A DNA stretch of 64,000 bases from Octopus vulgaris. Taxonomy: Eukaryota. The DNA is taken from NCBI GenBank assembly GCA_951406725.2, contig OX597815.1, forward strand, positions 24,304,001 to 24,368,000. The letters run 5' to 3'. Under the pieces are notes generated by a model. The model had not been told where the DNA came from and did not search any database. It worked only from the letters and a program-made list of their open reading frames with translations. This document shows positions 3,783-63,044 of the stretch, piece after piece (position 1 is the stretch's first letter; every line of letters begins with the position of its first letter). The translations under genes and the position numbers were made by a program.

Positions 3783-4140
3783 GTAAAGTAGAATAAAAAC
3801 AAAATTCAATATATCATAAATATTTAACTATGTTTAAAAATTTTAAATCAACTTTCCAGCATTAACTCAAAACTTAATAGCTATACAGAAAAATATTTTT
3901 AATATTAAGAAAACAAATGTTTTTTTTTATTTCTTACATCTGTTGATCCTTCTGTTTATCTTTGCTGTATCTCACTTCCTGGTTACTAAATATTTCTTGT
4001 ATTTCTTCAGAACTGCATACTTCAATACTTTGTTCCACGTCCTCCTGTCTCTTCTACAACTTCCCTCCACTTTAAGTAGAGGGAGACCCAGGAGGACATG
4101 CATACATACATACATACGTGTGTGTGTGTGTGTGTGTATG

Positions 4141-18462: not shown

Positions 18463-18490
18463 ATCGAGAAGATCAGTCCATTCTATGCAC
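18463..18490 (+). CDS. MYH10: Myosin II 28-nt constitutive small exon: (D)REDQSILC(T)
   Basis: Acceptor ttttcttttccacag and donor AC|gtgagt; it bridges the phase-1 donor at 3782 and the phase-2 acceptor at 28044. Confidence 0.95.
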
Positions 18491-27972: not shown

Positions 27973-28188
<216 letters not shown>

Positions 28189-28627
28189 TAAACTGGCCCT
28201 TTTTTCTATTCTTTCTCTGATTGCTTTTTGTATTTTTTTTTTTTTTTTTTTTTAATATTTAGTTAATCCTTTTGTATTTTATGGCCTCGAAATGTTGATT
28301 CCACCAAAATCTTTTATTTAGATATAAAGAAATTTGTGAAAATGAAGCTAAAGGAAACTAAAATTAAGGTTATAGGTTATATTTGTTTTTGTTTTTTTTT
28401 TTCTCTCTAAATTTGAAAGTAGAAGCTATAAAACTACTTGCTAATTAGGATCTCTTAAAAGGCAGCATCTTATTGAATAGTGAAATATTGTTTTTTGTAA
28501 AGAAGTCAAACTTGTTAAAACTATTGAGTTTAAATTTTGCTACTGAAATAGTATTTAATTTTACTGAATGGGCATTGTGTGTGTGTGTGTGTGTGTGCAC
28601 ACAAGTGATATTCTCAAAAATAATAAT

Positions 28628-29055
28628 CCTTTCTATTATAGATAGGCACAGGGCCTGAAATTTTAGGAAGGGAGCTAGTTGATTACATTGACCCTGGTAC
28701 TTATTTCATTGACCCTGGTACTTATTTCATTGACCCAGAAAGAATGAAAGGCCAAGTTGACCACAGCAGAATTTGAACTCTGGATGGAAGGATGAATGAA
28801 ATGGCACTAAGCATTTGCCTGTCATGTTAACAATTCTGCCAACTTGCCTTCTTTCTCAAAAGTAATAATCCTTTCTACTTTAGGGACAAGGCCTGAAATT
28901 GTGAGGTGGGGGTGGGTCTTGTCAATTACATTGACCCCAGTGCATAATGGGGACTTATTTCATTGACCCTGAAAGGATGAAAGGCAAAGCTGAGCTTGGC
29001 AGGATTTGAACTCGGCCTGTAAGGACAGATGAAATGCCACTAGGCATTTGCCGCC
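28628..29055 (-). mobile_element. Two tandem family D SINEs (Meta-domain-like core)
   Basis: Both contain ACTTATTTCATTGACCC...GAAAGGATGAAAGGCAAAG...GAATTTGAACTC-like sequence; TTCTCAAAARTAATA lies before, between and after them. Confidence 0.7.
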
Positions 29056-29931
29056 TTTCTCAAAAGTAATATTGACAAAAATAACAGTTCATGTGATTTA
29101 GTAGTTATCATTAGTATTTCCTTATTTTTCACTGCTTACTTTCCTAAGCTATAATGTTACTGAACTCTTAAAATATCAATATTTATCTTAAAAATGTGCA
29201 ATATAGATTTTTTTATTTATTTATTGGTGAAATACAACTTTGAGAGCTGCTACGAAATACAATTGTCATTTTTTTTTTTTTTTAAAGATTTGTTTTTGCT
29301 GTGGTTTAATGTATTGTTTGTTGTGTCGTAACGTTTTTCATAAGCATGCAATGTTTAATAGGTAACCTGAGTTACTGCTTCTTGTAACTTGTGTTGTTTT
29401 GTCAGATCTAAAGCCCTAAGCTAATACTAGCTGGTCACTTTTTTGGTGCACTGCACTTACACATTTTCCCGTAGTTTATATATAAAACCTTTAATTAGTT
29501 CGAGTGGCATAACTACATATTACACACTTATACACTTACAAACACAACTAATCTAGTTGAAACTTACTAAAACTGGTTGTATTGTATTTTTTGTAGTGTT
29601 GATATTTATATATTGCAATTTATATATGATTTTTGTATTCTTCAGCAGAAAAAAATATTTAAAAGAAATCTGAGAAGATGAATATCATCACTTTACAGCC
29701 TTGGTTTCCATGCTGATATATGTTCAACAAGCTATTGTTAACTTATAGTTATGTTAGTATTAACATAGTTAACATAGGAATTACTAAAACATTTATGTAC
29801 TGAGTGGGGAAAAAATCATTAGTCAAAAACTAATATTCTGATTTTTAAAGTAAAAATTTTCAGCAAGGCCAGAAGACAACTTTGAACATGTTTGACCTTG
29901 TTATTGCCTCATTGATGAAGTTATATATATA

Positions 29932-30217
29932 TCACCGTGACCGACCAGGCTATCAGATGTGGCTACATATTGCTGGTCACAATGCACTTCGCATTGTTTT
30001 AGCCTTCAAGTGATGCCACCCTGCTGGCTAAGCGAGCAGGCCAACAGAAGAAAGAGTGAGAGAAAGTTGTGGCGAAAGAGTACAGCAGGGATCGCCACCA
30101 CCCCCTGCCAGAGCCTCGTGGAGCTTTAGGTGTTATCGCTCAATAAACACTCACAACGCCCGGTCTGGGAATTGAAACTGCGAGTCCGCTGCCCTAACCA
30201 CTGGGCCATTGCGCCTC

Positions 30218-30218
<1 letters not shown>
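29932..30218 (-). mobile_element. tRNA-derived SINE family B
   Basis: Near-identical to 8755-9055. Confidence 0.85.
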
Positions 30219-30280
<62 letters not shown>

Positions 30281-31639
30281 TTCACTATATTTGCAGAAGC
30301 ATTTTCTAAGTAAATGTATGAGATTGTACATTAGCTGGTGTAGGAAAAGGGCATAGTTTAAAGAATAAATAATTTGGAGCCTCTATCCATATGAAAACTA
30401 ATTGTTAAGTTAGTGTTCGTATTAAAAAGCTAACTAGAAAAAATTATGCTATAAGGAATTTTAAAAAAAACCATGTGTGGAAACTGAAGCAATGGTTAAT
30501 GGTTCTCAACTTGATTGAGTAGCCTGTCTTATTTCATCTAAATAATTCCATGAAGACGAAATTCTAATGTAATAAGCTGTATATCATATGTTGGGCACTA
30601 AAACTATATGTGATATTCCACTGCTTCAGTGGACACGAGTAGGCAACGTTGTATTATTGATCAATGTTATTCTTTTCTTGAGACTGCCGCTACTATTTTA
30701 CTGCCTCTCTTTAAGAGTTAATATAGTTGCTTGTATTGCACAAGCAGCAATACAGCATATTGGCTTACAGCATGTACCATTTTGGCCAACTCATATTCCA
30801 GATTTTCTTGGAATATAGATTTCATATGCTGTCATAACCAAGTTCAATACATGCAGTTTAGGGTCATGTTGGTCTTGATTTATTTGCAGTAACACACACC
30901 TAAGTCCATACTGTGGTTTCATTCACTTCATCTTGTTAAAATATTATGACCTACCCTAAAGTTTAGTTGAATCAAAAATAAGATCTATATTTCAATATTT
31001 TGGAAATTATTAGATTTTTTGCTATCACTTATTCAATTTAAATTTTTTGTATTTTTACAGTTTGATAAGGAATATTCTGGCTAAATCGCTACTATAATCC
31101 CATTAAATATCTGAATTAATTAGATATCTTTTCAATGACATTAAATAAGATCTGGAAATGTAAAGGGGGTAGTGGTAAAGTACAATATAGTTTTAAGAAT
31201 TATTACTCATGAGGTCTGTTTAGTATAACAAATATCATATCCTATTTATTTGTGTATTATACACACTTTTCCCCAGACACTTAAACCTAAAAATTAAGAT
31301 TGTGCATGAGATACAAGAACCGTTGATTATTTTTTCCAGTCTTAAGTGCATGGCCATAATAGAGTTGACATGTCCAGGCTAAATGATGTTTAAATCACTA
31401 TAATGAGATTAAATTTCACTATGACAGTGATAATACGTTAAATGTTCATTATATTAAAGAAACATGTCCTCATCAGATGTAAGATTCAGAAGTAAAATGT
31501 AAAACTGAAATGGAAGCAGAAAAAATATGATGTATACTCAGTTTTTGTTTTATATACGGCTGTATACCTTATTTTGTGTGTATATGCTACTATAAGAACA
31601 TATATTTCTTAAAATTCTATTTCAATAATCTACCCCCAC

Positions 31640-31905
31640 CTCCAGTGAGGAGGATTGGCCTGCACGAATCCTGTACCAATGCCTTATAAAAAGCACTTGT
31701 TCTAGTGCCATGTAAAGGTGTTTGTGCAGTGCCACATTAAAAGCACCCCGTACTCGTAAAGTGATTAGCATTAGGAAGGGTATCAAGCTATAGAAACCAA
31801 GCCAAATCAAACTGGAGCCTGGTTCAGCTCTCCAACTTGCCAAGTTCAGTCAAACTGTCCAACCAATGCCAGCATGGAAAGAGGACATTAAAGGATGATG
31901 ATGAT
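31640..31905 (+). mobile_element. SINE family C, diverged
   Basis: Tail CAGCATGGAAAGAGGACATTAAAGGATGATGATG. Confidence 0.65.
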
Positions 31906-32444
31906 TCTATAATAGAAAACACAAAGGTGTTCCAACCATGAGCACCCAGTTGATATATTGTTTAATATATAAACTATACGATATATTGCTTAAATCGGCT
32001 CAGTAAGCAAACACAGGACCTATGGAATTTCTGCTGTCAAACTTCAGTATGGAAGGATATGAAACAACAATTCTCAAACTAACAAATAACTCCATTCTAA
32101 AGAAAAAAATTAAAATATAAATAAAATTTTGGCCCCATCTCTCTTTATTAATTAAATAGCAAAAGACTATGTATCCATACAATTCTACTTTCTTTGCCAA
32201 GGTGTTGGACATATTTAAAAACTTTATTAAACAGTAATTTGTCCACTCACTTTTCAAGCCTAATCCACTCTTTGCAAGAAACACTGATAAAGGATATAAC
32301 CTAGAATGCTGACATTTAGATATTTTTATTATGAATGCAAATACTTATACATACTATGTGCTTAACTTCCTTCAATATATGCTCACATTTTGATAATGAC
32401 AGTATTTATGTAATATTTTTATCGATTATTTAATTTAATCTTCC

Positions 32445-32709
32445 CAGGCTGATACCAGTACCCCCTGACTGACCTCCCTTGCTGGTGGCATGTAAAAAGC
32501 ACTATACGAACGTGATCGATGCCATGCCTGCCTGACTGGCTCCTGTGCCAGTGGCACATAAAAAGCACCCACTACACTCTCAAAATGGATGACATTAGGA
32601 AGGGCATCCAGCTATAGAAACATAGCCGCCTGGTGCAGCCGCTGACTCTTCGGGCCTCAGTCAAACCGTCCAGCCCATGCCAACATGGAAAGTGGACATT
32701 AAATGATGA
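32445..32709 (+). mobile_element. SINE family C, diverged
   Basis: AAGCACCCACTACACTC...AGGAAGGGCATCCAGCT...CATGGAAAGTGGACATTAAATGATG. Confidence 0.65.
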
Positions 32710-34212
32710 ATAGTATTTTTGATAATGGAAGTATTTTACTTTTAGTAAAGTATGTAAAAAGCAAAAGTATTCCAGTTCAGAATAGTAAAAATATTTACAT
32801 TAATTAATAATGTAAGTATTACATTCTGGTGTTTCATGCTGAAGGTTGACAGTTGTAATTCTATGGGACCTGTGCTTGTAGGGCATCAGACACCTCTTGT
32901 GGCCTGCACTGTTAAGGATTTGAAAATATTTTCAATGTGTTTTATACAGCAATTATAATACATTTGACTAAACTCATTTTATTCATGCATCAAAATATTG
33001 AAAAGGTAGTGCTTATTATACAAAAATATATATGATGTAAAAAATAAATATGGAACTTAAACTTGAAAATGTTGATAAATTGCAATTTTGTATATTAATC
33101 TTGCTTGAAGAACTGTTGTATGTATGAGTGTGTGTGTTATATATATAAAATTAGTGTATGAAACATTCTTATGTTAGCATCTAATACAAAAGAGTATGAT
33201 AATTTTGTCAGCTCGATCCTAGGTTTCGGCTATTTTAATATTTCTAGCTTAAATTTTTTGCTCAACTTAAAATCAAGCCAATTCTCCTTTCTTTAAACAT
33301 AAAAATAGCTAGTGGTCAACTACAAATTGTAGTTGTGTAATTCAATGAAAACAGTAAATCCAGGCATCATTTTGGAATCGGCATGAACATCTGATTCAGT
33401 TTCCAGTCTGATTACTTAGATCTGCAGTTTCTAATCGATCACCTATATTTTTAAGTCCCATTGTCAACTTGGGATCCATTAAATATCTATTTTACTTGCC
33501 TACACCTAGTAACCATTTATTTTTCTTGCAAATACTTGTAATGCACACTAATAGCAAACAAAATTCATCCAGGCCATTCCACTCTGTGCAAGTACCATTT
33601 ACCATAGCCTTTGGTTAACCTAAGGCTCTGAGTGATGAAATTGAGTGAATGAAAGCTGCAGAGTCCTGATGGATAGACTGAGCCTGTGGTCCAGGTTCCC
33701 ATTCATATCTTACTGATTATGCCTGTTGATTACATTGAAGGTACAAGTAACTGTGAAATACTCAGCCAGATTTTAATTCAGTGAGATTGTAGATGCAAGA
33801 CAAAGTTTAAAATTCAGTTCAGTCAGTTGTTAGCAACATGTAGTATGTTAAAATAATTTAAAACTTTGAGTAGTATCTAAAATCCATGCAGATGAATGAT
33901 CTTAGATGCTATTATTTTAAAGAACTTGGCATTAAATTCTATATCACTCAGTAGTTCTGATTACGTTTGACCTAGTTGTATGCAGAGAACATTCTCACCT
34001 GTTTCACACCAGCTGCACATCAGTCGTAGTGCATAGTATTGCTCCAGTATGCACTGTCTGTATATCACTCCAATAAATTGTTCACATGCACAGTACAACT
34101 GGATGTCTCAGTCACTATGAATTCCATGTGCTAACAGCCAGTTAGCGTCAGTTGTATGCATGATTGTTTGCATGTTTAACTCTCAATTCCTCTCTTTATT
34201 GTCATCTTTTAG

Positions 34213-34230
34213 AGCAAAGAGCTGAACCTT
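34213..34230 (+). CDS. MYH10: Candidate alternative loop-1 microexon, 18 nt: SKELNL
   Basis: TTTAAC branch-like site, pyrimidine tract and ttttag acceptor, consensus gtaagt donor, phase 0-0, no stop; five (T)GCATG motifs nearby. Confidence 0.7.
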
Positions 34231-35753
34231 GTAAGTATCCTTTGGTCTTATTGTAGTTCTCACAGCTAATATTTTTATTTTGTCGCACATGTGTGGAAGG
34301 CAACACGCTTACATTGCAGCTTGCATGTTATCTAACTTTTGGCATGTAATCTGTTTATTAACTTAGGGTGTGGTCAGCGAGGAGTCAGTTACCAGCATGA
34401 TATACATGAAAAAGGTTGGCTCATTTTTTTCATTTTGACATTATTACAAATTTTCAGTTACTGTAATTTTTTGTATTTTTAATTGTTCATTATTAATCCG
34501 GCTTTTTTTGAATACGCTTTCACTGGAGCTTTAAATGTTTTACTGGACACATCTAATATATTTGTTGTATATTTAAAAGCTATTTTACATTTATTTGGAA
34601 GCTTTCGCCTCTTAAATTAATTTTTTATATTTTAGTTTATTTTCTGAGATTTAAATGTTGAACAAGTATTTGAGGTTTTACTTGAGTTCGCTCTATGGGG
34701 AAACATTAGAAGCTTTTTCAAAATGTTCTTTGTTCTTATTTTTATTTAATTTAATAGATGCAATATGTTTAAATTATTTAAAAGTACAGCTTTTTGAATT
34801 GATTCTGTGTTTTAGTTTCTATAACTTAATTGAACTGAAAGGAAAAGAATCTCAAATAGCATTCTGCATCTTGACTGGCCTAAGTAGACTGGTATACTGG
34901 AAAATACAGAAAATTCATTGAAAATAGTAAAAATAGGCTTTTCCCTGTCCTCTAAAACCTTTGACAAGCAATATATAAAATCTTCAATATTTTTACTTAA
35001 TATGTTGCCATCTTTCCTCCCCCAAAGTATAATTGAGTTAATAATTTCAGACAGTTTCTTCTAATGTCAATAAAATTGGCAACTTTTTATATGAGCCAGC
35101 TGTGAATGTCTGTGTAATTACATGATCACTTCAATGAAGCAACTTCTACCTCAATAGACTTCCTATCAATAAAATAAGAACAGAATACTGTTGAGAACCT
35201 TTCTTTGAACAAACTAGGAAACAACCGAATTTCATTTTAGAATGTTGAAAAGTTATTTTGTTAGTTTTGTGTTGACATCAGTTTTATTAATTTCTATAGA
35301 AACACGATGTTTCTATAATGATGTTTTATGGTATATACAATTTGTCCCATTTTATGTATAGGTTGCCTGATAAGTTATGCAAAATAAATTGAAAGATAAT
35401 TTTTTGCAAGCCATTACAATTAGAATTTCAGAAAATAAAACTTAAATATTAAATCATTGCACATACTTAATTTGACATTTCAATAAAATGGTAAATTAGT
35501 AACATGTATCAAATTTTAAAATGTTATGGCATGAAATTATTCTTTAACAAAAGCAAAAAAAACTTTTGGTATTTACCAGTTTATCAAAATGTTTTTGTTT
35601 TTGTTTCTTTTTCTAAGGGTGGAGAGAGGTGTTGGGAGTTAAGTGATACACATTTTTCATGGAACATAGTTTTAGTGAGGAACAATATAGGCTTTGTAGC
35701 ACTCCAATTATGGCCACTATATTGGCTGGCTTATATTGAGTAGTTTTGTTTAA

Positions 35754-35974
35754 CCCTTTAGCATTTAAACCGGCCATATCCGGCCAAAAGTATTCTGCCT
35801 GTTTTATGTTCAAACTGGCCAGATCTGGTCTCTCACACCAACCCTACAATGTTGTTTTAAAAATTAATAGTTACCTCATCAAAATCTCATAGCTACAAGA
35901 TGATGCATGATTAGTTCAAAACAATGTGGATGAAAAGACATTAATTGTGGCAGAATAATGCGAACTCTAAAGGG
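35754..35974. mobile_element. piggyBac-like MITE with TTAA target-site duplication
   Basis: TTAA|CCCTTTAG ... CTAAAGGG|TTAA; copies at 42911 and 58128. Confidence 0.8.
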
Positions 35975-38900
35975 TTAAACAATCAAGTCTACAAGGGGGA
36001 AAGCATAATAGAATGAGCAAAGTTATTTGTAGTTCCTGATGTAATAACTCTTCTAATACTACAGAATTAAAATTCTGATGATTCTCAGATTGCTTCAGGC
36101 ACTTATTCAGCCAGTTTCCTCAATATTCTTGTGGAGTTGCTTGTTATGGAAATTGTATGTTTCTGCAAATTATTTAATTCTGCAAGTAACATTTATCGGT
36201 GCGTAAAGATGATTCTGATTGCTAGTTTCCTTGCATTAAGATGTGTTTGCTACAATAACACTATCTGTTCATGTTGGTAATTAATAATGCTGTAATACAA
36301 CAAATTCTAATTGTATGGAATGCAATTATATATTATACATAGCTATAATTATACGTTGTACATGTTAAATGGTTCATGTTGCCAGTTAAGTCAGCATGTG
36401 TTATGGGACACTTTGTATTATATCTTGTTTCTAAGCCTTCATCATTCATGATTGCTAGAATTATGCCATGTTTCGATTACTTTTGTATATTTAGAATTGC
36501 ATGTTTCTTTTTTTTTTCTTTTTTTTTTTTATAAAAAAAGTGAAAAAGCAGTTATGATCTCTCAACATTATCTAGTTTAACCTTTATAATAGTGAAAAAG
36601 TATATCTGCTTAATACCTTTAGCTAGAATATACCTTTTAGAGAGTTTTATTGGAATAGGTATTCAATGGTTTCCATATTCTTATTTCACTCAAAAATGGA
36701 ATAGAAATATAATTGCAAAAAGAAATGGCATGTTAGACAAAAGCAGGCAGTGAGAAATACAATTAAAGAGTTGAATAGAAGAAAAAAAAATCATCAAATA
36801 AAATTGAAATATTTTAAGAATAAGTTTAAAAACTTGTTTTCTTTTCCTTAATAACTGTAAAGTTTTGTTACCAGCTGTTGATTCCTTGTTAATTGTGTAC
36901 ACTTCACTATTTTGCCAATTGTCTCAGCAATAGAATTACTCATTTACAAAGTTTAGATTTTTAATATATCTGCTTACGGTTTGATAATTTAGTAGATGTA
37001 AGTCAGGTTGGTCAGGTGACACAGGATACTTATTTGATATTTTATTTATGCTGTCGCTGAATCGAAGGCAGCAAATTGGCAGAATCATAAGAGCATCAGT
37101 TAGGATGCCTTGTGCTATTTGTTGCTGCTCTTTATGGTCTGAATTTAAATCCTGCTAAACTGAATTTTACCTTCATTGTATTTATTTCTTTTGTGGTTGA
37201 TAAAATACCAATCCAGTATTGGGGTCGTTTCTCTCTTTCTCTATGGATTGTACCTGTATTCTAAGATCCAGCCTTTTGTCCTGCTGATTTGGCCTGAGAA
37301 TCGCATTAAGGGTACATGTATCTGTTGAATATTCAGCCACTTATGTGTAAATTTCACTGTAGGAATTCAGTTGGTCTAACAACTGACTGCTCATCTTCAA
37401 GATTGGTGGAGAATTCACCATTTTTGAATTGTCTGAATTTAGATAATTTTATGTCAATAGTAATTAACATTTAAAGTCTGAAAGTCCATTAGTCTTTTCT
37501 TTTTTTTAAGAAGTATTTTTATTATTCTATTCTATCTATTTGAATTCAAGTAGTTATTGTATATCAAACACTGTATATTGTTGAAGAAATTACATATTTT
37601 AGTAATGACATTTCCTTACTTCATTAGAAGTTTAAAGTTTTCCTTTAACATCAGTCAATGCAGATGGATTTTAAGTCTAGCAGCAACAATATCTGTAGAG
37701 TTACTGTTTGGTTTGTAGATATAAAAAGATGACTACTTTAATGTTCTAATTAGTAAGAATGCTGGTGGAAATATTGATGATCTTCTAAAACTGTTTTTAG
37801 GCAAGTGCCTTTTTTTGAAACCACGTGTGGAAACTGAAGCAATTACATTGCAGAAGAGCCAGTTTAACCATCTAAAACACGTGCAAGAAAAGAGTTATAT
37901 TCACATTTTCATTTATTTCATGAAGTGTTGCGCCTCTGTGATCTGGTTACCAACACAATTTCATTGCAATGGAACTGTGCCATTGACCAAATAGCAGTAA
38001 TAAAATAAAAAAAGTTTGGATAGCTCATGAAATAAACAGGAAGTGACTATAACTGTCTTTGTGTTTTTAGATGGCTAAAATGACTCTTTCCTTGTAATTA
38101 ACTTTACAAGTGTTAAACGAATGTATTAAGTGTTTTGCAAACCATTGTCAGTTATCTTTCTTTTGTAGTATTGGATGCATATATTTTCTTGTACTTATTC
38201 CGTTTAAGCATTGATTTTGTAACCCGCCTCAACCTTTTGTATCATTGCCCACCTGTCAATTTTAGGATTTTTGTTTTGTTGTCAGACATAGATTCTGAAT
38301 TTTTTTTTTTTAGAATTAGAAACCAATTAGGGTAAGGGAATCTACAGTTGAAGTATATATTCAATATATAAAATATGTTTCATTTACATTTGAAGTTTCA
38401 AAATATTTTTTGTTTGCATTTATAATTACACTTTATCCCTTGAAAAAAAAAAAAAAAAAAAAAAAAGAAAGAAAAAATTTTCATTTTCATAAAGTGAAAT
38501 AATTTCAGATGCAAACAAAATATATTTATTTATACACTCAAATGGAAAGAAAATATTTATATGTAAAAATTAATGTAACTCTAAATCCTCTAACTCCACT
38601 CAAGATTCCAAAATAATTTTTTTTTTAATTAAAAGATTGTTTTTCAGATTCAATCGTTAATGCTTAAACATAGAAACCCAAAGTGCCCTCCCCCCAAGTA
38701 TAATAAAAATATAAGATATTAGTGGTGGACAAAATAAAAATCCATGCTTAACAGAATGAGTACTCATTTCCTTGTGTATGACAATGGCATGGTTATAATA
38801 TCTGTTTCAAAAATGTTCCTTATTGTATGCTGTTCTTCAGTTTCATGACTTTGTTCTTTTGTTGATTCAAAAAAAAAAAAAAATTTATTGAGAGCATTAG

Positions 38901-41607
38901 TAGTGGCATTTTGTCAGATGTGTTGTAAGATTCTTGTTTTGATGATGCAATTCTTGCATGTTTGTCACAAAAATTATTTGGTGTATCTTCTATAAGGAAA
39001 AAAAAAAATTCTTCCAAGGCTGTTGTAATTAGCTATTTAAAATGCTAACATAGCATTTTTTTTTTGTATTAATTAGCTATGTTGATGTTTTCTCATTAAG
39101 TGATAGAATTGTTTCTTTCTTCGAAGCATCAGTATCTATTTCTTTCTTTACCTATGAAAATTTGTAATCCTGGTTGAATGCTATCTTAAGTTTTCTTCAC
39201 TTGGATTATAAGGAAATCGTTTTATTACCAAAACATGTTTTTGGCTCGTAATAGTTCTTCATATGACAAATGAGTCATACTTTATTCAAATGTTCTTCAT
39301 AGTAATTCTAATATCTCTGTAAGATTTCATTTACATTATCTGTCTCTTTCGAGAAAGCTCTGTGAAACTTGTTCTTTGCTTACTATTTTGCACAGCTTCT
39401 TAACCTCTTGGCCTCTATTACTAGTGTATTCTACTTCAGGCTACATGCCGATAGTGCCAAGTGATGAGAATATTTACCGTCTTCAATACGAAATTGATGA
39501 TATGCATCATTATGATGGTTGGTGATATCACCAACCATTAAAGATCTAATAAGTTTACTTGACGGTCAACTGTCAAGTTTCCACTAGTCTATTTTCTCCT
39601 CTTCCCCTTCCCCACATTAATTTGTGATACCATTTGTAATTTGCTTCAGGTGCACACACAGTGGTTCCTCACTCATGATAATTTTTTACCATCTGCAAAT
39701 TTTTCCCATTTTTTTCATCGTCTGCTCTTCTCTCTAGCCATATTTTGCTGAGGGTTGTCAATATTCTGAGTTTCCTACTTTCATTTGTTAACTAACATAT
39801 TTTGGGCAGTGAAAACTATCTTGTTAGTATCTATCTATTCTATAGAAACCTGTTAATTTTCAATATGAGCATTCTACATATCTATTTTTTACTCGCATTT
39901 AAAACGTAAATTTTTTGTTCCTTTGTTAACCACAATAGTAAAAATGTTCATGTTCTAATTATTGTACTTTATTGTGGAAATGTTCCAGCCTTCATTTTAA
40001 TTAGGTTACTGTAGTTGGTTTGAATTGTTTCAGTTGAGGTTTTTCATTTTAAATACTGTTTTTATTGAGTTATTCCTGACTTAGGCATTGTCAGGAAACT
40101 GAACAAATAAATTTTTATCAAATTTTACTACTTGAGTTTTATTGATGATGGACTGTTTAGTGATGGACTTTTCAGTTTCATGTCTTTGGTGTATTGCATG
40201 CTTGACCAAAGTGCATTGCTCTAATTACTTGAGTCAACTTTGATGAAAAGTAGGTGCCAATTTCACTTTCTACTTCAACAGTTAACATTAGAAAAGTTAT
40301 CCTGTCACTTTTCCAATAAATTATGAAAGCTATGGTTTTTTTTTGGTTTTTTTTTATATGTTTTGCAATATTTCCATGGCAGCATAAGTGAAATGATTAT
40401 TACAATATTTGCATATTGTCAGATCACACAGTTTTAAAAGTGGGCATCACTTAAGCTGGTCGCAATAATGTAAACGAATGAAATCAGACTTTCAATAGTC
40501 CAGCTACTTTAATAAGCATTAAAAAAAAAAAAATTAAAATACTGTTTGCATTGACAATGGTGATTGAATCTTTATAGTCAGTGTTTTAGTATCATAGTGT
40601 TGGAATAAATCTTTTTCAGCTGAGGAAAGTGTGTTAAAAAAAACCCCACTTTATCATGAATTGTTCACCCTTAAGTTTTGAATGAACTTTGAGGTTAAGA
40701 ATTATAAACTTTCCTTGAATATCAGCCGAAATTTATTTTGTTTGATGTTTTTGGTAATGGTAGCAGTTAGTTTAAAACTTAATAATTAAGAAAATATTGA
40801 GCAAAATTCTTCAATTAGCAAGCAGCTGTCTCAGAATGTTTTATTGAAAATGAATATCAATCGTATCTCAGAGCTGAGGCTGTTAACAGGTGTGGCTGTG
40901 TGTACAAGAAGTTTACTTCTCAACCATGTGGTTGTGAGTTCAAACCCATTGTTTGGCACATTGCTCAAGTGTCATTTACCATAGTTTCAGTTTGACTATC
41001 TTATAAGTGGGATTTAGTAGATGTAAAATATGCTTGTGTGTGTATCACCCAGAAAGGATTAAAAAGTGATGTTCTGTGAACAAAATCCTTTGTAGTATTT
41101 GTTCTGTACTGAGTTACAGACACTCTTGTTACTCTAGCCATCAATGAACCAGTGATTAGCCTATTGGAAACCTGTAATCGGTTACGCTATTATTCACTGA
41201 CCAAAATATAAAACACCTGTTTTCAAACAATTCCTATTTTAAAATTCAAAATTTTTGAAGGCTATCTCATCTTTTTTTAGTTTGGAGATATAAAACCGTA
41301 GGCCTATGAATTAAATTTTTATTGCTCCATTCAAATATATTGTCTAAAATGAATTCTTCCAACATTTTTAAATAACCATATAGTTTTTGCTCTATTTTTA
41401 GTTTCATTTCACATCATATCTGTCAATATAGTCTGTTTAACTATGTCTTTTATTACATCTGCCTGTTTAAGATATATCTCTTTAACAGTAAATTTCAGTC
41501 TCATGAAGATCTTTCGATATTGGGTAGGGGAGCATCTAGTAAGTATTTGATATTCTTCAAAGTGTATCTTCATGATGTAATTGAAATGATTATATCACAC
41601 ATTTCAG

Positions 41608-41700
41608 GGTGAACTGGAAAACCAATTGTTACAGGCTAACCCTATCCTTGAAGCTTTTGGAAATGCCAAAACCATAAAGAATGATAACTCTTCTCGTTTT
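41608..41700 (+). CDS. MYH10: Myosin II exon, 93 nt: [31 protein letters not shown] (switch I)
   Basis: Acceptor atttcag, donor TTT|gtgagt; conserved myosin motif. Confidence 0.96.
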
Positions 41701-55300: not shown

Positions 55301-58127
55301 TGACTAAGGGTGATTGCATGTACTGATTATACATGCAGCTAATTTTCCCACCAATAGAAAATAATATTGAAGCACATAGTGACTAACTGCTGTAGATCAA
55401 ACAGTAATTCTGACCATGCTTAATAATGTGATTATCTTAGATATTTAAACTCTATATTGAATTTTCTAACCTGAAGCGAAGTTTCTGGAGTTGGCCATAA
55501 TATTCCAAATACATTGTTTAAGAGTTTAGGGCTGTACTAAGAACAATCCTATTTCAACCCATAGGCACAGCAATCTGTGACTTAATCTTGAAACCTCATA
55601 CCATATTTCATTCCCCTTTTCTTACTGAAATTTATTTTATATTTTTCTTAAACTTTTTTTTGCCTTCTACTCTGCTGCAGAACTCTGATGGGAAGGTAAC
55701 CAACTCTCTGGTTTTCTTGTTACCTGTGGCTGCCATTGCCACACACCAAGCTTTCTTAACCTCTTCATTAATTTTTTTCTTTCTTTTAATTTTTTTGTTG
55801 CATGACTCATTTATTCTTAATTTTTGTAGTAAAATAACTAAATGCAATCCTAGTTGCTTGGTTTATGTTCTAGTCTTCAGTGGGCCTTTATATCTTACAA
55901 TTCATATCGGTCCCTGAACAGAGAGAAATTTGCTTATTTTGAATTTTGTTATAGTAAAAAAAAAAAAAATCCTTCCTTCTTGCACTGATGATATCATTGT
56001 CCAATGCTGTCACAGTAATACAAAATAGTTCTGCCTTCTCCAAAAGATAATGCTGCATTATGTTATCTCTGACACTGACATGCTTTCATTTTGCAAGATG
56101 TCATTTTTTCCAATCATTAAACAAAGAGTAGAAGTTTATTAAAAAGAATTTTCATTTCATTTTTTCAGATTTATTTCATTCTTTTCAAATTTTACCTTAT
56201 TTTTTACTTCAACTTTTAAAATTTTTTGTTTGTTTTAAAACAAAGAAAATGCATAGCATTATCTTTCGACCCTCACAAATTTGGTTCATCTAGATCTGGT
56301 ATATGAAGTTTTAAAAAAAGCATCTTATTGAGGAATATCTCTTTATTTCAAGAAACAGACAAGCGATGCTTTTTTTTTTTTTTGCCCAGTGTAATAGATA
56401 TATTTAAAAAGATACAGTTCTCTTGCATAGGTTTTATTAAGAAAAGCATTTAAAGAACCTATCACTATCAATAATAATAGTAATGATAATAAATCAACTG
56501 CAATTATGATTGATAATAATCATAATTTTGTATATTATGATGTTCCGTATTTTAGAGGAAGGGAGATAGAAAGTTGCAATGTTGGTGCCTTTCCCAAAGG
56601 CATTAACAATGTAACACTATAATAATGTCTGAGTGTGTAAGATACCTTACCCGTAGCTTATTTTGTAGAAAGCATTGTGGTATCCTCATTGTGGTGCTTA
56701 AATAATCAGTTTTTCCCTCCCAGGAGTTGGTATTTTTAACCTTGTATTTTCCTATCATGTATAACAAGAAATCTTTTAAGATTTTAGTACCCAAGATCTC
56801 GATGAAAATATCCCCAGGCTTACACCATAACAGTCCACTCACTATCAAGACATGTTTGCATGTGCACACACTGTCTATGCATGTATATTCATTCATAGAG
56901 TTCCATTTGAACCTGCATAGAACCTTTGTGGAGTCTAAAAAGCCTTGTTTCACTCACTGTATGTTGTAGGTTTACAGACTGGATACCACCGTAAGACACT
57001 CAACACTCCCATAGAAAATTTCTTCTGAACCTCTAAATATATATATTATTATTATTTTATAATTCATAAAAAGAACTGTGTAAATATTGTCCATTTTTTG
57101 TTTCTTTCTCTTCTTGGTTTTATGAAAATATTTTGGTTTGATCAAAACTGCATGCTGTGAAGTACTCTCCAGAATACCTATCCCTCTTCCTTTTTGGTCT
57201 TGCCCTCTTCTTACATTTTAAACTCTCTGTATTGGAAGTGATCAGAATTTCTCTCAACTTTAACAAGTTTTAGTAATGATCGTGTCTTAAACTTTATTAT
57301 ATAATCAGAAATTATGTATGGGGCTCATTGAACTTTAGAGGTGTTTTTAATTTCCTCTCATAGCTATTAAGAAAGCACAATGTGAAAATATTGTTTTTTC
57401 TTTTCTCTCTTTTTATTTTCTATTGGTTTGAGCTGGAGGAAGGAATGTTGTGCCTATGTCCTCTGCAGGCCCTTTGACACTGATAATATTAATTTCATTT
57501 CTGTTCTTCTTGAACAGTTGTAAGTGCTGGAGAGGTATTCCAGGAATGCAATATTCTGAGGAGGAAAAACTTGTAGTTAATGCAGAGGGGTTGCACAATG
57601 TGAATAGGAAAGATTTCAACAAGTTAGAGCTGAAACGAGCAGATGCTATTGTAATAGTAATAGCAGGGGGAGAGAAAGAGGCGGGATGAGCTGTACATCT
57701 TTGTGTGCTGTTGTTGTTTGTGAATGACTCAGGCTAATCAGTAAAGTAGCCCTTTCTTTAAATGTTGTCAAGGATATCAATGGGTGTGTGTGAGTAGTAA
57801 CAGCACTGTCTCAAATATGGGAGCAGTTCTTCACTGGAATCTTGAATCTTATCTGAGCTTCGTAGAGGATTAGTAATTATCAAAGGCTGAGATATTTTCT
57901 GATTCTGAAGAGGGTGGTCAGTGTTTGGATACATTCTTTGCACTGTTGAGGATGTGTGTTTTGCCAGGAGAGATCCTCAGTAATGGGGAGACCTAACATT
58001 TAAGGCCAGCAAAAGGGTTCTCAGGTCAGTGCTGTTCATGGAATGTGGTGTGGTTGTGGTAGTTTCTTGATGAGCGTGATGATTGTGTTTTTGCAGTTTT
58101 AGGTAAGATTGACATGACTCCATTTAA

Positions 58128-58594: not shown

Positions 58595-59253
58595 TTAAAG
58601 ATATTTTCAAGGTCCCTGTTCTTAGAGTTGGTGTAAGTTTGGGGTGAACTCTGTAGATTTTATGTGTGACACTTGGGTGTGGAAGGTTAAGGAGCAATGC
58701 TGAGTTGCATCATCTGCTTAGGAATGGGTATTATTAGAGTTAAATCATATTTAGTGGGGGAGAGAGGGAGAAAGTGTGTGTGTGGGAGGGAGGGAGACAA
58801 AACTAAACCCTGTGGCACACTAGAGTTGATCATGTGGGTCGGAGGGAACTATCAGCATACACCATGATAATTACAACCTGACAGGAAGCCATCAATTTGT
58901 TTGAATACTTTTTAATGAAAATTTTGATACAATAAATAAGAACAAATGATATTAGAATTGTCAGTGTCGTTTTTATTTTATAAACCATGATACCCATAAC
59001 CCAGCAGCAGTTCAAGGAAATTGTTCAAGAGGAAATATTTATCATTGATTAAAATTTGTTGTTGACCATAGATCTGCTTGAATAAGCAGATCTATGGTCA
59101 CAAGCATTAAAGCTGTAATGACTATCTTGTTTCCTGTCTACCTGTCCTTTTTTTACCTTGTTTTGTTAATAAGTGTGCCCTGAGCAACGTTATCCAAGAT
59201 AAGTTAGTTTGAGGGAGATTTGGTTGCAATTTCTAATAGATCATGTGACCATT

Positions 59254-59619
59254 CAGTGATGTCCAGAGCATTTTGAGTGATGTCCAGAGCATTTTGAGTG
59301 ATGTCCAGAGCATTTTGAGTGATGTCCAGAGCATTTTGAGTGATGTCCAGAGCATTTTGAGTGATGTCCAGAGCATTTTGAGTGATGTCCAGAGCATTTT
59401 GAGTGATGTCCAGAGCATTTTGAGTGATGTCCAGGGCATTTTCAGTGATGTCCAGGGCATTTTCAGTGATGTCCAGGGCATTTTCAGTGATGTCCAGGGC
59501 ATTTTCAGTGATGTCCAGGGCATGATCAGTGATGTCCAGGGCATTTTCAGTGATGTCCAGGGCATGATCAGTGATGTCCAGGGCATGATCAGTGATGTCC
59601 AGGGCATTCTCAGTGATGT
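59254..59619. repeat. 21-bp minisatellite (AGTGATGTCCAGRGCATTTTS), about 17 copies
   Basis: Head-to-tail copies with no spacers; sequence variants are arranged in blocks. Confidence 0.95.
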
Positions 59620-60090: not shown

Positions 60091-60786
60091 ACTTTGATAC
60101 TTTGATAGGTTTCGGCCATTATTGGCCCAGGCCATGTCTAACTTAATAGCACCACCTGGTGAAGTCTTTCAAGTCAGAATTTGGGCACTATGGCCCACTC
60201 AAGTAGAGAGTTATTGTTTACAGAGACATATCCGGGTGTAGGGGGTTTATCCGGGATTTCTTGAAGGAATCTGTCCAAAGACTTCTTGAACCCTATAGGG
60301 TCAGTTTCTGTTTTAATGTGTTTTGGTGTAATGTTAAAGAGAGCGGGGCCAATTGAGGTGAAATAATTGTGCCGTATTGTTGTTATGAGATGAGAGTGCG
60401 ATTTTTGTTTTGGGCGGATGGCACGGGGCCCAAGCCTTGGATGTACCTTAAAGGTGATGCCAACATCATTTGGGCAATGTTGATGGAATATTTTCCACAT
60501 CATGCAGATGATGTAGCGCTCACGACGACGTTGGAGAGAATAGAGTTTTAGCTTTTCTAGCCGACCCCAATAGTCGAGGCCTGTCATGCCATCTATCTTT
60601 TTTGTGATTGCCCTTTGAGGTGCTTCAACTTTTATGATACCTTGTATTGTGTGGGGAGACCACAGTGGACAACAGTATTCAAGGTGGGGTCGGGCAAAAG
60701 TGGAGAAGAGAAGGATAATGGTGTGGATATCTCTCGACTGGAAAGTTCTGAGAATCCAGGAACACATTCTGCGGGCCATGTCAACA
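60091..60786 (-). mobile_element. CR1-group LINE 3' fragment with an open 201-aa ORF2 C-terminus
   Basis: [43 protein letters not shown]; 3' stem-loop and (TATCAAAG) tail; both flanks TA-rich. Confidence 0.85.
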
Positions 60787-62820
<2,034 letters not shown>

Positions 62821-63044
62821 TTTCATCAGGAGAGACACAAATAAGTGAGAAGAAAACAAAGGACCACTGATGCGGTCACAGGAGTGCGACGAAAGAACTC
62901 TGGCCGAAATAAGATTAAGATTAATGTAAAAAATAAATATCACTGAAGCAAAATAACACCAAATATATAGTGCGTGTGTTTTTATTGGCTAAACTGGCAA
63001 TATGACCATTCCGAAATATAACAATATATATATATATATATATA

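What the first reader, a model, noticed from the sequence alone, without database searches (positions are those of the whole stretch)
34141..34400. Candidate 18-nt loop-1 microexon with clustered RBFOX motifs
Seen: TTTAAC, pyrimidine tract, TAG|AGC AAA GAG CTG AAC CTT|GTAAGT, phase 0-0, in the 13.4-kb loop-1 intron. TGCATG occurs at 34157, 34169 and 34322, and GCATG at 34342 and 34395. It gives ...NFHSS-SKELNL-GELENQ. Known: vertebrate MYH10 has a neural loop-1 cassette (B1/N30) regulated through UGCAUG/RBFOX, and MYH11 has the SM-B insert at this junction. Inference: a cephalopod counterpart, either ancient or convergent, which gene predictors could easily miss.
Basis: partly seen in the sequence, partly recalled or inferred. 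Interest (0 to 1): 0.72.

Follow-up and report, generated by a model that had tools for sequence, protein, structure and literature searches.

The report
Ancient myosin II loop-1 microexon
This is a real, optional 18-letter exon in a cephalopod's non-muscle myosin gene, one of two neighbouring optional exons; similar six-residue inserts occur in other molluscs, an annelid and a ribbon worm, and it likely tunes motor speed under likely, untested control by the splicing factor RBFOX.

Summary
The exon is real. 34213-34230 (SKELNL, phase 0-0) is spliced between 28164 and 41608 in an assembled contig of one public run, beside skipped and alternative forms, and in 5 of 15 listed database isoforms of near-identical proteins, so it is already annotated. 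An x[KR][DE][ILVF]NL insert sits at the same junction in mollusc, annelid (Owenia, with and without) and nemertean proteins, and in none of 19 arthropod, nematode or deuterostome rows; ticks, tunicates and a hemichordate have other cassettes there. So A is likely an ancestral lophotrochozoan microexon in a bilaterian-wide splicing hotspot; descent shared with vertebrate B1 or SM-B is not shown. The (T)GCATG cluster exceeds chance (P about 5e-4) and an RBFOX-like exon is in the genome, but one site abuts each branch point, a repressive layout unlike MYH10's distal enhancer. Neural specificity is untested. Side finding: a 15-nt microexon just after switch II (55681-55695). New member of a known kind.

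The parts
28044..28164 (+). upstream exon: P-loop and first half of loop 1 of non-muscle myosin II
   Evidence: joint from 28164
28165..28173 (+). 9-nt extension by a second donor (adds VCS)
   Evidence: 1 of 15 listed isoforms (P0130); not seen in runs
34157..34174 (+). two TGCATG (-56, -44 from exon A); the second abuts the predicted branch point
34175..34212 (+). predicted branch point TTTAAC, pyrimidine tract and TAG acceptor of exon A; AG-free zone 59 nt, no TGC in the last 40 nt
   Evidence: branch point is inference from consensus
34213..34230 (+). exon A: 18-nt cassette microexon (SKELNL), donor GTAAGT
   Evidence: 78-nt junction contig in run X7; 5 of 15 listed isoforms
34322..34346 (+). 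TGCATG (-45 from exon B, +92 from A), predicted branch point CTAAC 34332-34336, GCATG (-25 from B)
34367..34414 (+). exon B: 48-nt cassette (16 aa), weak donor GTTGGC, holds GCATG at 34395
   Evidence: GT..AG joints in runs X2 and X7, two studies; contig; 5 of 15 listed isoforms
41608..41700 (+). downstream exon (helix after loop 1, switch I)
55681..55695 (+). side finding in the same gene: 15-nt microexon (NSDGK) just after switch II
   Evidence: protein models only, no reads laid

Best explanation
The 18-nt stretch is an alternatively spliced cassette exon (A) in loop 1 of a cephalopod non-muscle myosin II, one of two tandem cassettes (18 and 48 nt) seen singly or both skipped; A is likely inherited from the lophotrochozoan ancestor, the choice is likely set by RBFOX bound next to each branch point, and the longer loop would likely speed ADP release. 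Shown: exon, junctions, three mRNA forms in one run, a fourth (VCS) in protein models, the matching hexapeptide in molluscs, an annelid and a nemertean. Inferred: RBFOX at -45, -25 and +29 would silence B (the calcitonin exon 4 layout); the same -45/-25 pair lies +92/+112 behind A and would favour A, while the -56/-44 pair would oppose A. RBFOX level would thus move the gene from B towards A or skipping. Which tissue uses which form is not known; the layout does not by itself predict neural inclusion of A.
For:: run X7 holds skip, +A (78 nt = 30+18+30) and +B contigs at 41608. B joints with GT..AG ends in 2 of 4 runs; of 15 listed members (22 in cluster) 5 +A, 5 +B, 4 skip, 1 VCS, 0 A+B; +A occurs on all three contig sizes listed. 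Owenia with and without YKDLNL, Tubulanus YKDINL; Sinanodonta SREINL; label in 18 of 27 mollusc-group rows, 10 of 10 annelid-group rows, 1 of 1 nemertean, 0 of 7 arthropod, 0 of 4 nematode, 0 of 8 deuterostome; a pattern scan found the exon as genomic DNA (AG|18 nt|GTAAGT) behind a myosin P-loop exon in L002 and L005; motif cluster unique in 64 kb; TTGCATGTT stands just before both predicted branch points. RBFOX-like RRM exon in G000 (best PDB hits Fox-1/RBM9/ASD-1, E 3e-6 to 2e-5). (passages): upstream and exonic sites repress, downstream sites activate; -34/+45 layout in calcitonin exon 4. (passages): longer loop 1 raises ADP release; NM-2B1 has higher ATPase and motility.
Against: No binding, knockdown or tissue data. 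The motif cluster is not seen around the matching exon in L002 (none within 400 nt upstream or the 170 nt held downstream) or L005 (one at -358); L008 has one about 20 nt downstream but no myosin exon on its contig. Sites on both sides of A make the sign ambiguous. +A was seen in 1 of the 4 runs and in no listed row. A+B would be in frame and the 136-nt intron has no steric block; double inclusion occurs in other mollusc clusters, so exclusivity may be only a tendency. [quoted passage not shown] Taxon sampling came from two searches seeded with lophotrochozoan loops.
Confidence: 0.55

Rival explanations
1. One reading: RBFOX activates A in neurons, as with MYH10 N30, so A is a neural microexon.
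For: Two sites +92 and +112 behind A are in the activating place; N30 is a neural, UGCAUG-dependent cassette of the MYH10 gene; all three forms coexist in X7.
Against: Two sites directly upstream of A's branch point are in the repressing place; the downstream pair belongs to B's acceptor; N30's enhancer is 1.5 kb away; no TGC between branch point and AG, which most SRRM3/4 microexons have; the one named squid cDNA lacks the insert (tissue not shown by the tool).
Confidence: 0.22
2. A and B are real cassettes but other factors choose between them; the GCATG cluster is incidental or minor.
For: Motif chosen after the fact; cluster absent around the matching exon in L002 and L005; CATGT is as enriched as GCATG; B has a weak donor that alone could set its level.
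Against: Only such cluster in 64 kb on either strand for TGCATG; same 9-mer at the same offset in both acceptors, though an old duplication of the acceptor could also give that.
Confidence: 0.2
3. The 18 nt is a cryptic or noise exon without function.
For: Seen in one run only here.
Against: Its contig has the highest depth of the three forms in that run (108.5 against 81 and 52.6; a rough measure); 20 different hexapeptides of one pattern at the same junction in three phyla.
Confidence: 0.02

Closest known systems
Vertebrate MYH10 (NM-2B) loop-1 cassette B1/N30
   Same: Non-muscle myosin II, short in-frame cassette in loop 1, UGCAUG nearby (passages). MYH10 is the best PDB match of P0003. That B1 and N30 are one exon is recalled.
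   Different: 30 nt against 18 nt; enhancer 1.5 kb downstream against sites hugging both branch points; neural specificity shown there, untested here; no sequence evidence of common descent.
MYH11 SM-B 7-residue insert (and MYH14 C1)
   Same: QGPSFSY stands directly before GELE, the place SKELNL takes; some mollusc clusters carry a look-alike second cassette such as QPSFSF.
   Different: Different sequence from exon A; smooth-muscle gene; effect strong in chicken, reported absent in human.
RBFOX-repressed exons: calcitonin/CGRP exon 4, C. elegans egl-15 exon 5B
   Same: UGCAUG beside the branch point, plus an exonic site in calcitonin; control of an exon pair in egl-15 (passages). Exon B has -45, -25, +29.
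   Different: Function shown there, only layout here; no adjacent SUP-12-type GUGUG (nearest is 31 nt before the -45 site).
Loop-1 cassettes of other bilaterian non-muscle myosins (ticks, Ciona, Styela, Saccoglossus)
   Same: Isoforms with and without a short insert before GELE; Styela has two tandem cassettes.
   Different: Other sequences and lengths (4-13 aa); none has the x[KR][DE][ILVF]NL pattern.

Membership tests
[quoted passage not shown] | Myosin_N, Myosin_head and Myosin_tail_1; closest to MYH9/10/11, not striated myosins | tested here: met
   2275-2229 bits against 1326 or less for full-length striated; sister to Doryteuthis non-muscle myosin II
loop-1 cassette exon of myosin II | lies at the loop-1 junction before GELE, frame-preserving | tested here: met
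loop-1 cassette exon of myosin II | both included and skipped mRNAs exist | tested here: met
   one run; protein models
loop-1 cassette exon of myosin II | changes motor kinetics | not testable with these tools
   literature only, mixed
RBFOX target exon | (U)GCAUG enriched in flanks; RBFOX gene present | tested here: met
   41, 44, 47 (one exon of the RRM only)
RBFOX target exon | motifs conserved in relatives | tested here: inconclusive
   not kept near the exon in L002/L005, one in L008; no second cephalopod genome at hand
RBFOX target exon | binding and splicing change on RBFOX loss | not testable with these tools
   needs CLIP, knockdown or minigene
MYH10 N30/B1-type neural cassette | neural-specific inclusion | not testable with these tools
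   runs carry no tissue label and are contigs
MYH10 N30/B1-type neural cassette | activating UGCAUG pair downstream only (distal enhancer) | tested here: not met
   sites lie on both sides, one next to A's branch point; single TGCATG further on at 35904 and 36498, no cluster
SRRM3/4 (eMIC) neural microexon | UGC between branch point and AG (in 74-79% of known cases) | tested here: not met
   exon A: no TGC in the last 40 nt; the switch-II microexon has three
mutually exclusive exon pair | never both; steric, frame or structure mechanism | tested here: inconclusive
   0 of 15 isoforms and no contig with A+B, but skipping of both is common, the intron is long enough and no unusual fold (z 0.12)

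The most novel reading that the evidence does not exclude
Lophotrochozoan non-muscle myosin II is retuned by a microexon code: a loop-1 microexon kept since the common ancestor of molluscs, annelids and nemerteans, switched against a neighbouring cassette by RBFOX at paired branch points, plus a mollusc-only neural microexon that inserts residues between switch II and the relay helix, where none of the vertebrate myosins aligned here has an insert, and that may turn the motor into a slow or catalytically altered form.
Probability: 0.2. Interest if true: 0.7.

Novelty: new member of a known kind. Interest (0 to 1): 0.42.

Why it matters
Loop-1 splicing is a known way to tune myosin II, so the kind is not new, and the isoform is already in protein databases. 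What my searches did not find in print is that one 18-nt exon has been kept across molluscs, annelids and nemerteans, and that the deuterostome and tick clusters opened have their own cassettes at the same junction. That makes the junction a clean test of exon turnover at an old splicing hotspot, and the A/B pair a compact minigene for asking whether RBFOX position rules hold in a cephalopod. The switch-II microexon may matter more, since it touches the catalytic core.

Tried and rejected
Laying four runs on the whole intron: repeats crowded the tables (129 joints and 155 between-letter rows not shown), so A was not visible; a narrow stretch resolved it, but X3 and X9 laid nothing and X5 only intron, which proves nothing. 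No RNA holder listed as RNA on record. Depth arithmetic hints that X2 holds almost only +B, unlike X7; contigs drop variants, so not used as proof of regulation. Structure prediction of a relative with the insert (P0215): mean pLDDT 55.8, loop region under 50, uninformative; no fold search made. RNA fold of the A-B region: z 0.12, no case for structure-driven exclusivity. Metagenome scan: 5 of 8 loci lack both a pyrimidine tract and a myosin exon and were set aside as chance. Pfam RRM search of the genome did not single out RBFOX; 2 of 3 pattern hits were chance. First tree run timed out; the FastTree tree has weak deep branches and misplaces Tubulanus, so it only sorts rows into groups; four mollusc rows were labelled from cluster members, and 'n' in molluscs often means a skipped isoform. 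Homology of A to vertebrate cassettes: not testable on 6 residues; a shared hydrophobic-polar-hydrophobic ending before GELE was noted by eye, not tested. Two papers asked for by DOI were not held. Earlier findings of the scan: none.

Full report
Observation. The sequence is as described. Exon A spans 34213-34230, with a TAG acceptor, a 59-nt AG-free zone and a GTAAGT donor, inside a 13,443-nt phase-0 intron (28165-41607). It is the only strict in-frame microexon candidate in that intron; the reverse strand has none and simulations expect 0.12. Three TGCATG within 150 nt compare with 0.15 expected (P 5e-4), and no other 254-nt window of the 64 kb reaches that count (0 of 6318).

The gene. The flanking exons encode the P-loop and switch-I region of a non-muscle myosin II. 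The closest named protein is Doryteuthis pealeii non-muscle myosin II (90% on the upstream exon; sister group). A near-identical full-length protein has the three myosin II Pfam domains and matches MYH10, MYH9 and MYH11 best. The upstream exon has one strong match in G000 and one weak.

The exon is used, and optionally. In the cluster of proteins 98% identical on the upstream exon, 15 of 22 members were listed: 5 carry SKELNL, 5 a 16-residue insert, 4 none, 1 VCS, none both. So annotation already has it. In one search one of four runs (X7) held three contigs ending on the 41608 exon: skip (depth 81), +A (78 nt, depth 108.5, showing the upstream exon end followed by the 18 nt) and +B (depth 52.6). 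The other three runs did not cover the exon. The runs are only guessed to be RNA, but the joints fall on splice sites; contig depth is a poor measure of level, and no tissue is given.

The 16-residue insert maps to 34367-34414, 136 nt behind A. Joints 28164-34367 and 34414-41608 with GT..AG ends appear in 2 of 4 runs from two studies. The GCATG at 34395 is inside this exon, and those at 34322 and 34342 flank its predicted branch point. A second donor 9 nt behind the upstream exon explains VCS. Loop 1 therefore has at least four lengths (+0, +3, +6, +16).

Age. Among 296 fetched proteins with both flanks (redundant, and drawn from searches seeded with such loops), 94 end in x[KR][DE][ILVFM]N[LF] directly before GELE, in 20 spellings. 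Named carriers: the bivalve Sinanodonta, the annelid Owenia, which has both forms, and the nemertean Tubulanus. On a 57-row tree built without the loop, the label falls in 18 of 27 mollusc-group rows, 10 of 10 annelid-group rows and the nemertean, and in 0 of 7 arthropod, 0 of 4 nematode and 0 of 8 deuterostome rows. A pattern scan of metagenome contigs gave 8 loci; two (L002, L005, 89% alike, so one observation) are an 18-nt YKDLNL exon behind a myosin P-loop exon of the annelid-like type, a third (L008) has the look but no myosin exon on its contig, five look like chance. A is thus likely ancestral to these lophotrochozoans. Ticks, Ciona, Styela and Saccoglossus have isoforms with and without other inserts at this junction, and MYH11's QGPSFSY sits there too. 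The junction is an old hotspot; whether any cassette is shared by descent with vertebrates cannot be told from 6 residues. Drosophila zipper splicing at this site is recalled; one search did not return a paper on it.

Regulation. G000 holds an exon whose product matches Fox-1/RBM9/ASD-1 RRMs. Both acceptors carry TTGCATGTT just before the predicted branch point (-44 for A, -45 for B). By the Fox-1 review (PMC2777236, passages) upstream and exonic sites repress, downstream sites activate, and calcitonin exon 4 is silenced through -34 and +45 sites. Exon B (-45, -25, +29) fits that layout. For A the sites stand on both sides. MYH10 N30 instead depends on two sites 1.5 kb downstream (PMC3082911, passages). 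I infer that RBFOX likely silences B and shifts the gene towards A or skipping. Against: the cluster is absent around the exon in L002 and L005 (about 170 nt held downstream), and nothing here tests binding. A lacks the UGC typical of SRRM3/4 microexons (bioRxiv 2024.09.17.613571, passages, where it is also not strictly needed).

Effect on the motor. Inferred from relatives: longer loop 1 raises ADP release in scallop myosins (PMC3912159, passages), and NM-2B1 has higher ATPase and motility (PMC3535348, passages); human SM-A/SM-B are reported unresponsive (PMC3938199, abstract). A structure prediction was too poor to use.

Side finding. Six of the 15 isoforms carry NSDGK right after DIAGFEIFK; it maps to a 15-nt exon at 55681-55695 with TGC at -20, -8, -5 and a 108-nt AG-free zone, the look of an SRRM3/4-type exon. 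Other mollusc clusters have different inserts of 5-11 residues there; the annelid-group, nemertean, arthropod, nematode and deuterostome proteins printed and the four vertebrate chains aligned have none. No reads were laid on it.

Novelty. Ten full-text searches returned no paper describing this exon; most subscription journals are not searched. A 2026 preprint on tissue-specific splicing that includes an octopus (10.64898/2026.09.05.749416, passages) does not mention myosin in its main text; its supplements, which I could not see, may list the exon with tissue values. 10.1101/2021.02.24.432780 was searched for five terms without a relevant passage. Other papers were seen only as search listings.

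Verdict. Real, alternatively spliced, old, already annotated; a new member of a known kind. Exon real and optional about 0.97; ancestral to lophotrochozoans about 0.85; RBFOX involved about 0.6; neural-specific inclusion of A about 0.25. Interest 0.42.

Noticed in passing
window 55681-55695: 15-nt microexon (NSDGK) between switch II and the relay helix, in 6 of 15 listed isoforms; three TGC near the acceptor and a 108-nt AG-free zone; other mollusc clusters have different inserts at the same joint, non-molluscs seen have none.
   Followed up: partly
window 34367-34414: Second loop-1 cassette B with a weak GTTGGC donor; spliced in two runs of two studies; never with A.
   Followed up: yes
window 28165-28173: Second donor 9 nt downstream adds VCS; in one protein model.
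   Followed up: partly
proteins P0174, P0043, P0196, P0213: Mollusc clusters carry arrays of 2-4 loop-1 cassettes; one class (QPSFSF, SGFSF, QNTFTF) resembles the MYH11 SM-B insert shown, a better candidate for shared descent than exon A.
   Followed up: no
L002 about 1000-1010 and L005 about 4100-4110: About 78 nt behind the YKDLNL exon lies a second acceptor-like site (CTAAC, pyrimidines, CAG) followed by GGTGAACT, which copies the start of the next myosin exon; L008 has the same 8 letters near its donor. Unexplained.
   Followed up: no
L012 1476-1622 (-): RBFOX-like RRM exon in G000 contig C24.
   Followed up: partly
window 18463-18490: 28-nt exon before the P-loop exon, also present in L005; appears constitutive.
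   Followed up: no
window 28566-30234, 31636-33036, 35372-36305; 59252-59619; 60786-62821: High-copy interspersed repeats in the intron, a 21-nt tandem array of 17.5 copies and a 2-kb AT microsatellite.
   Followed up: no
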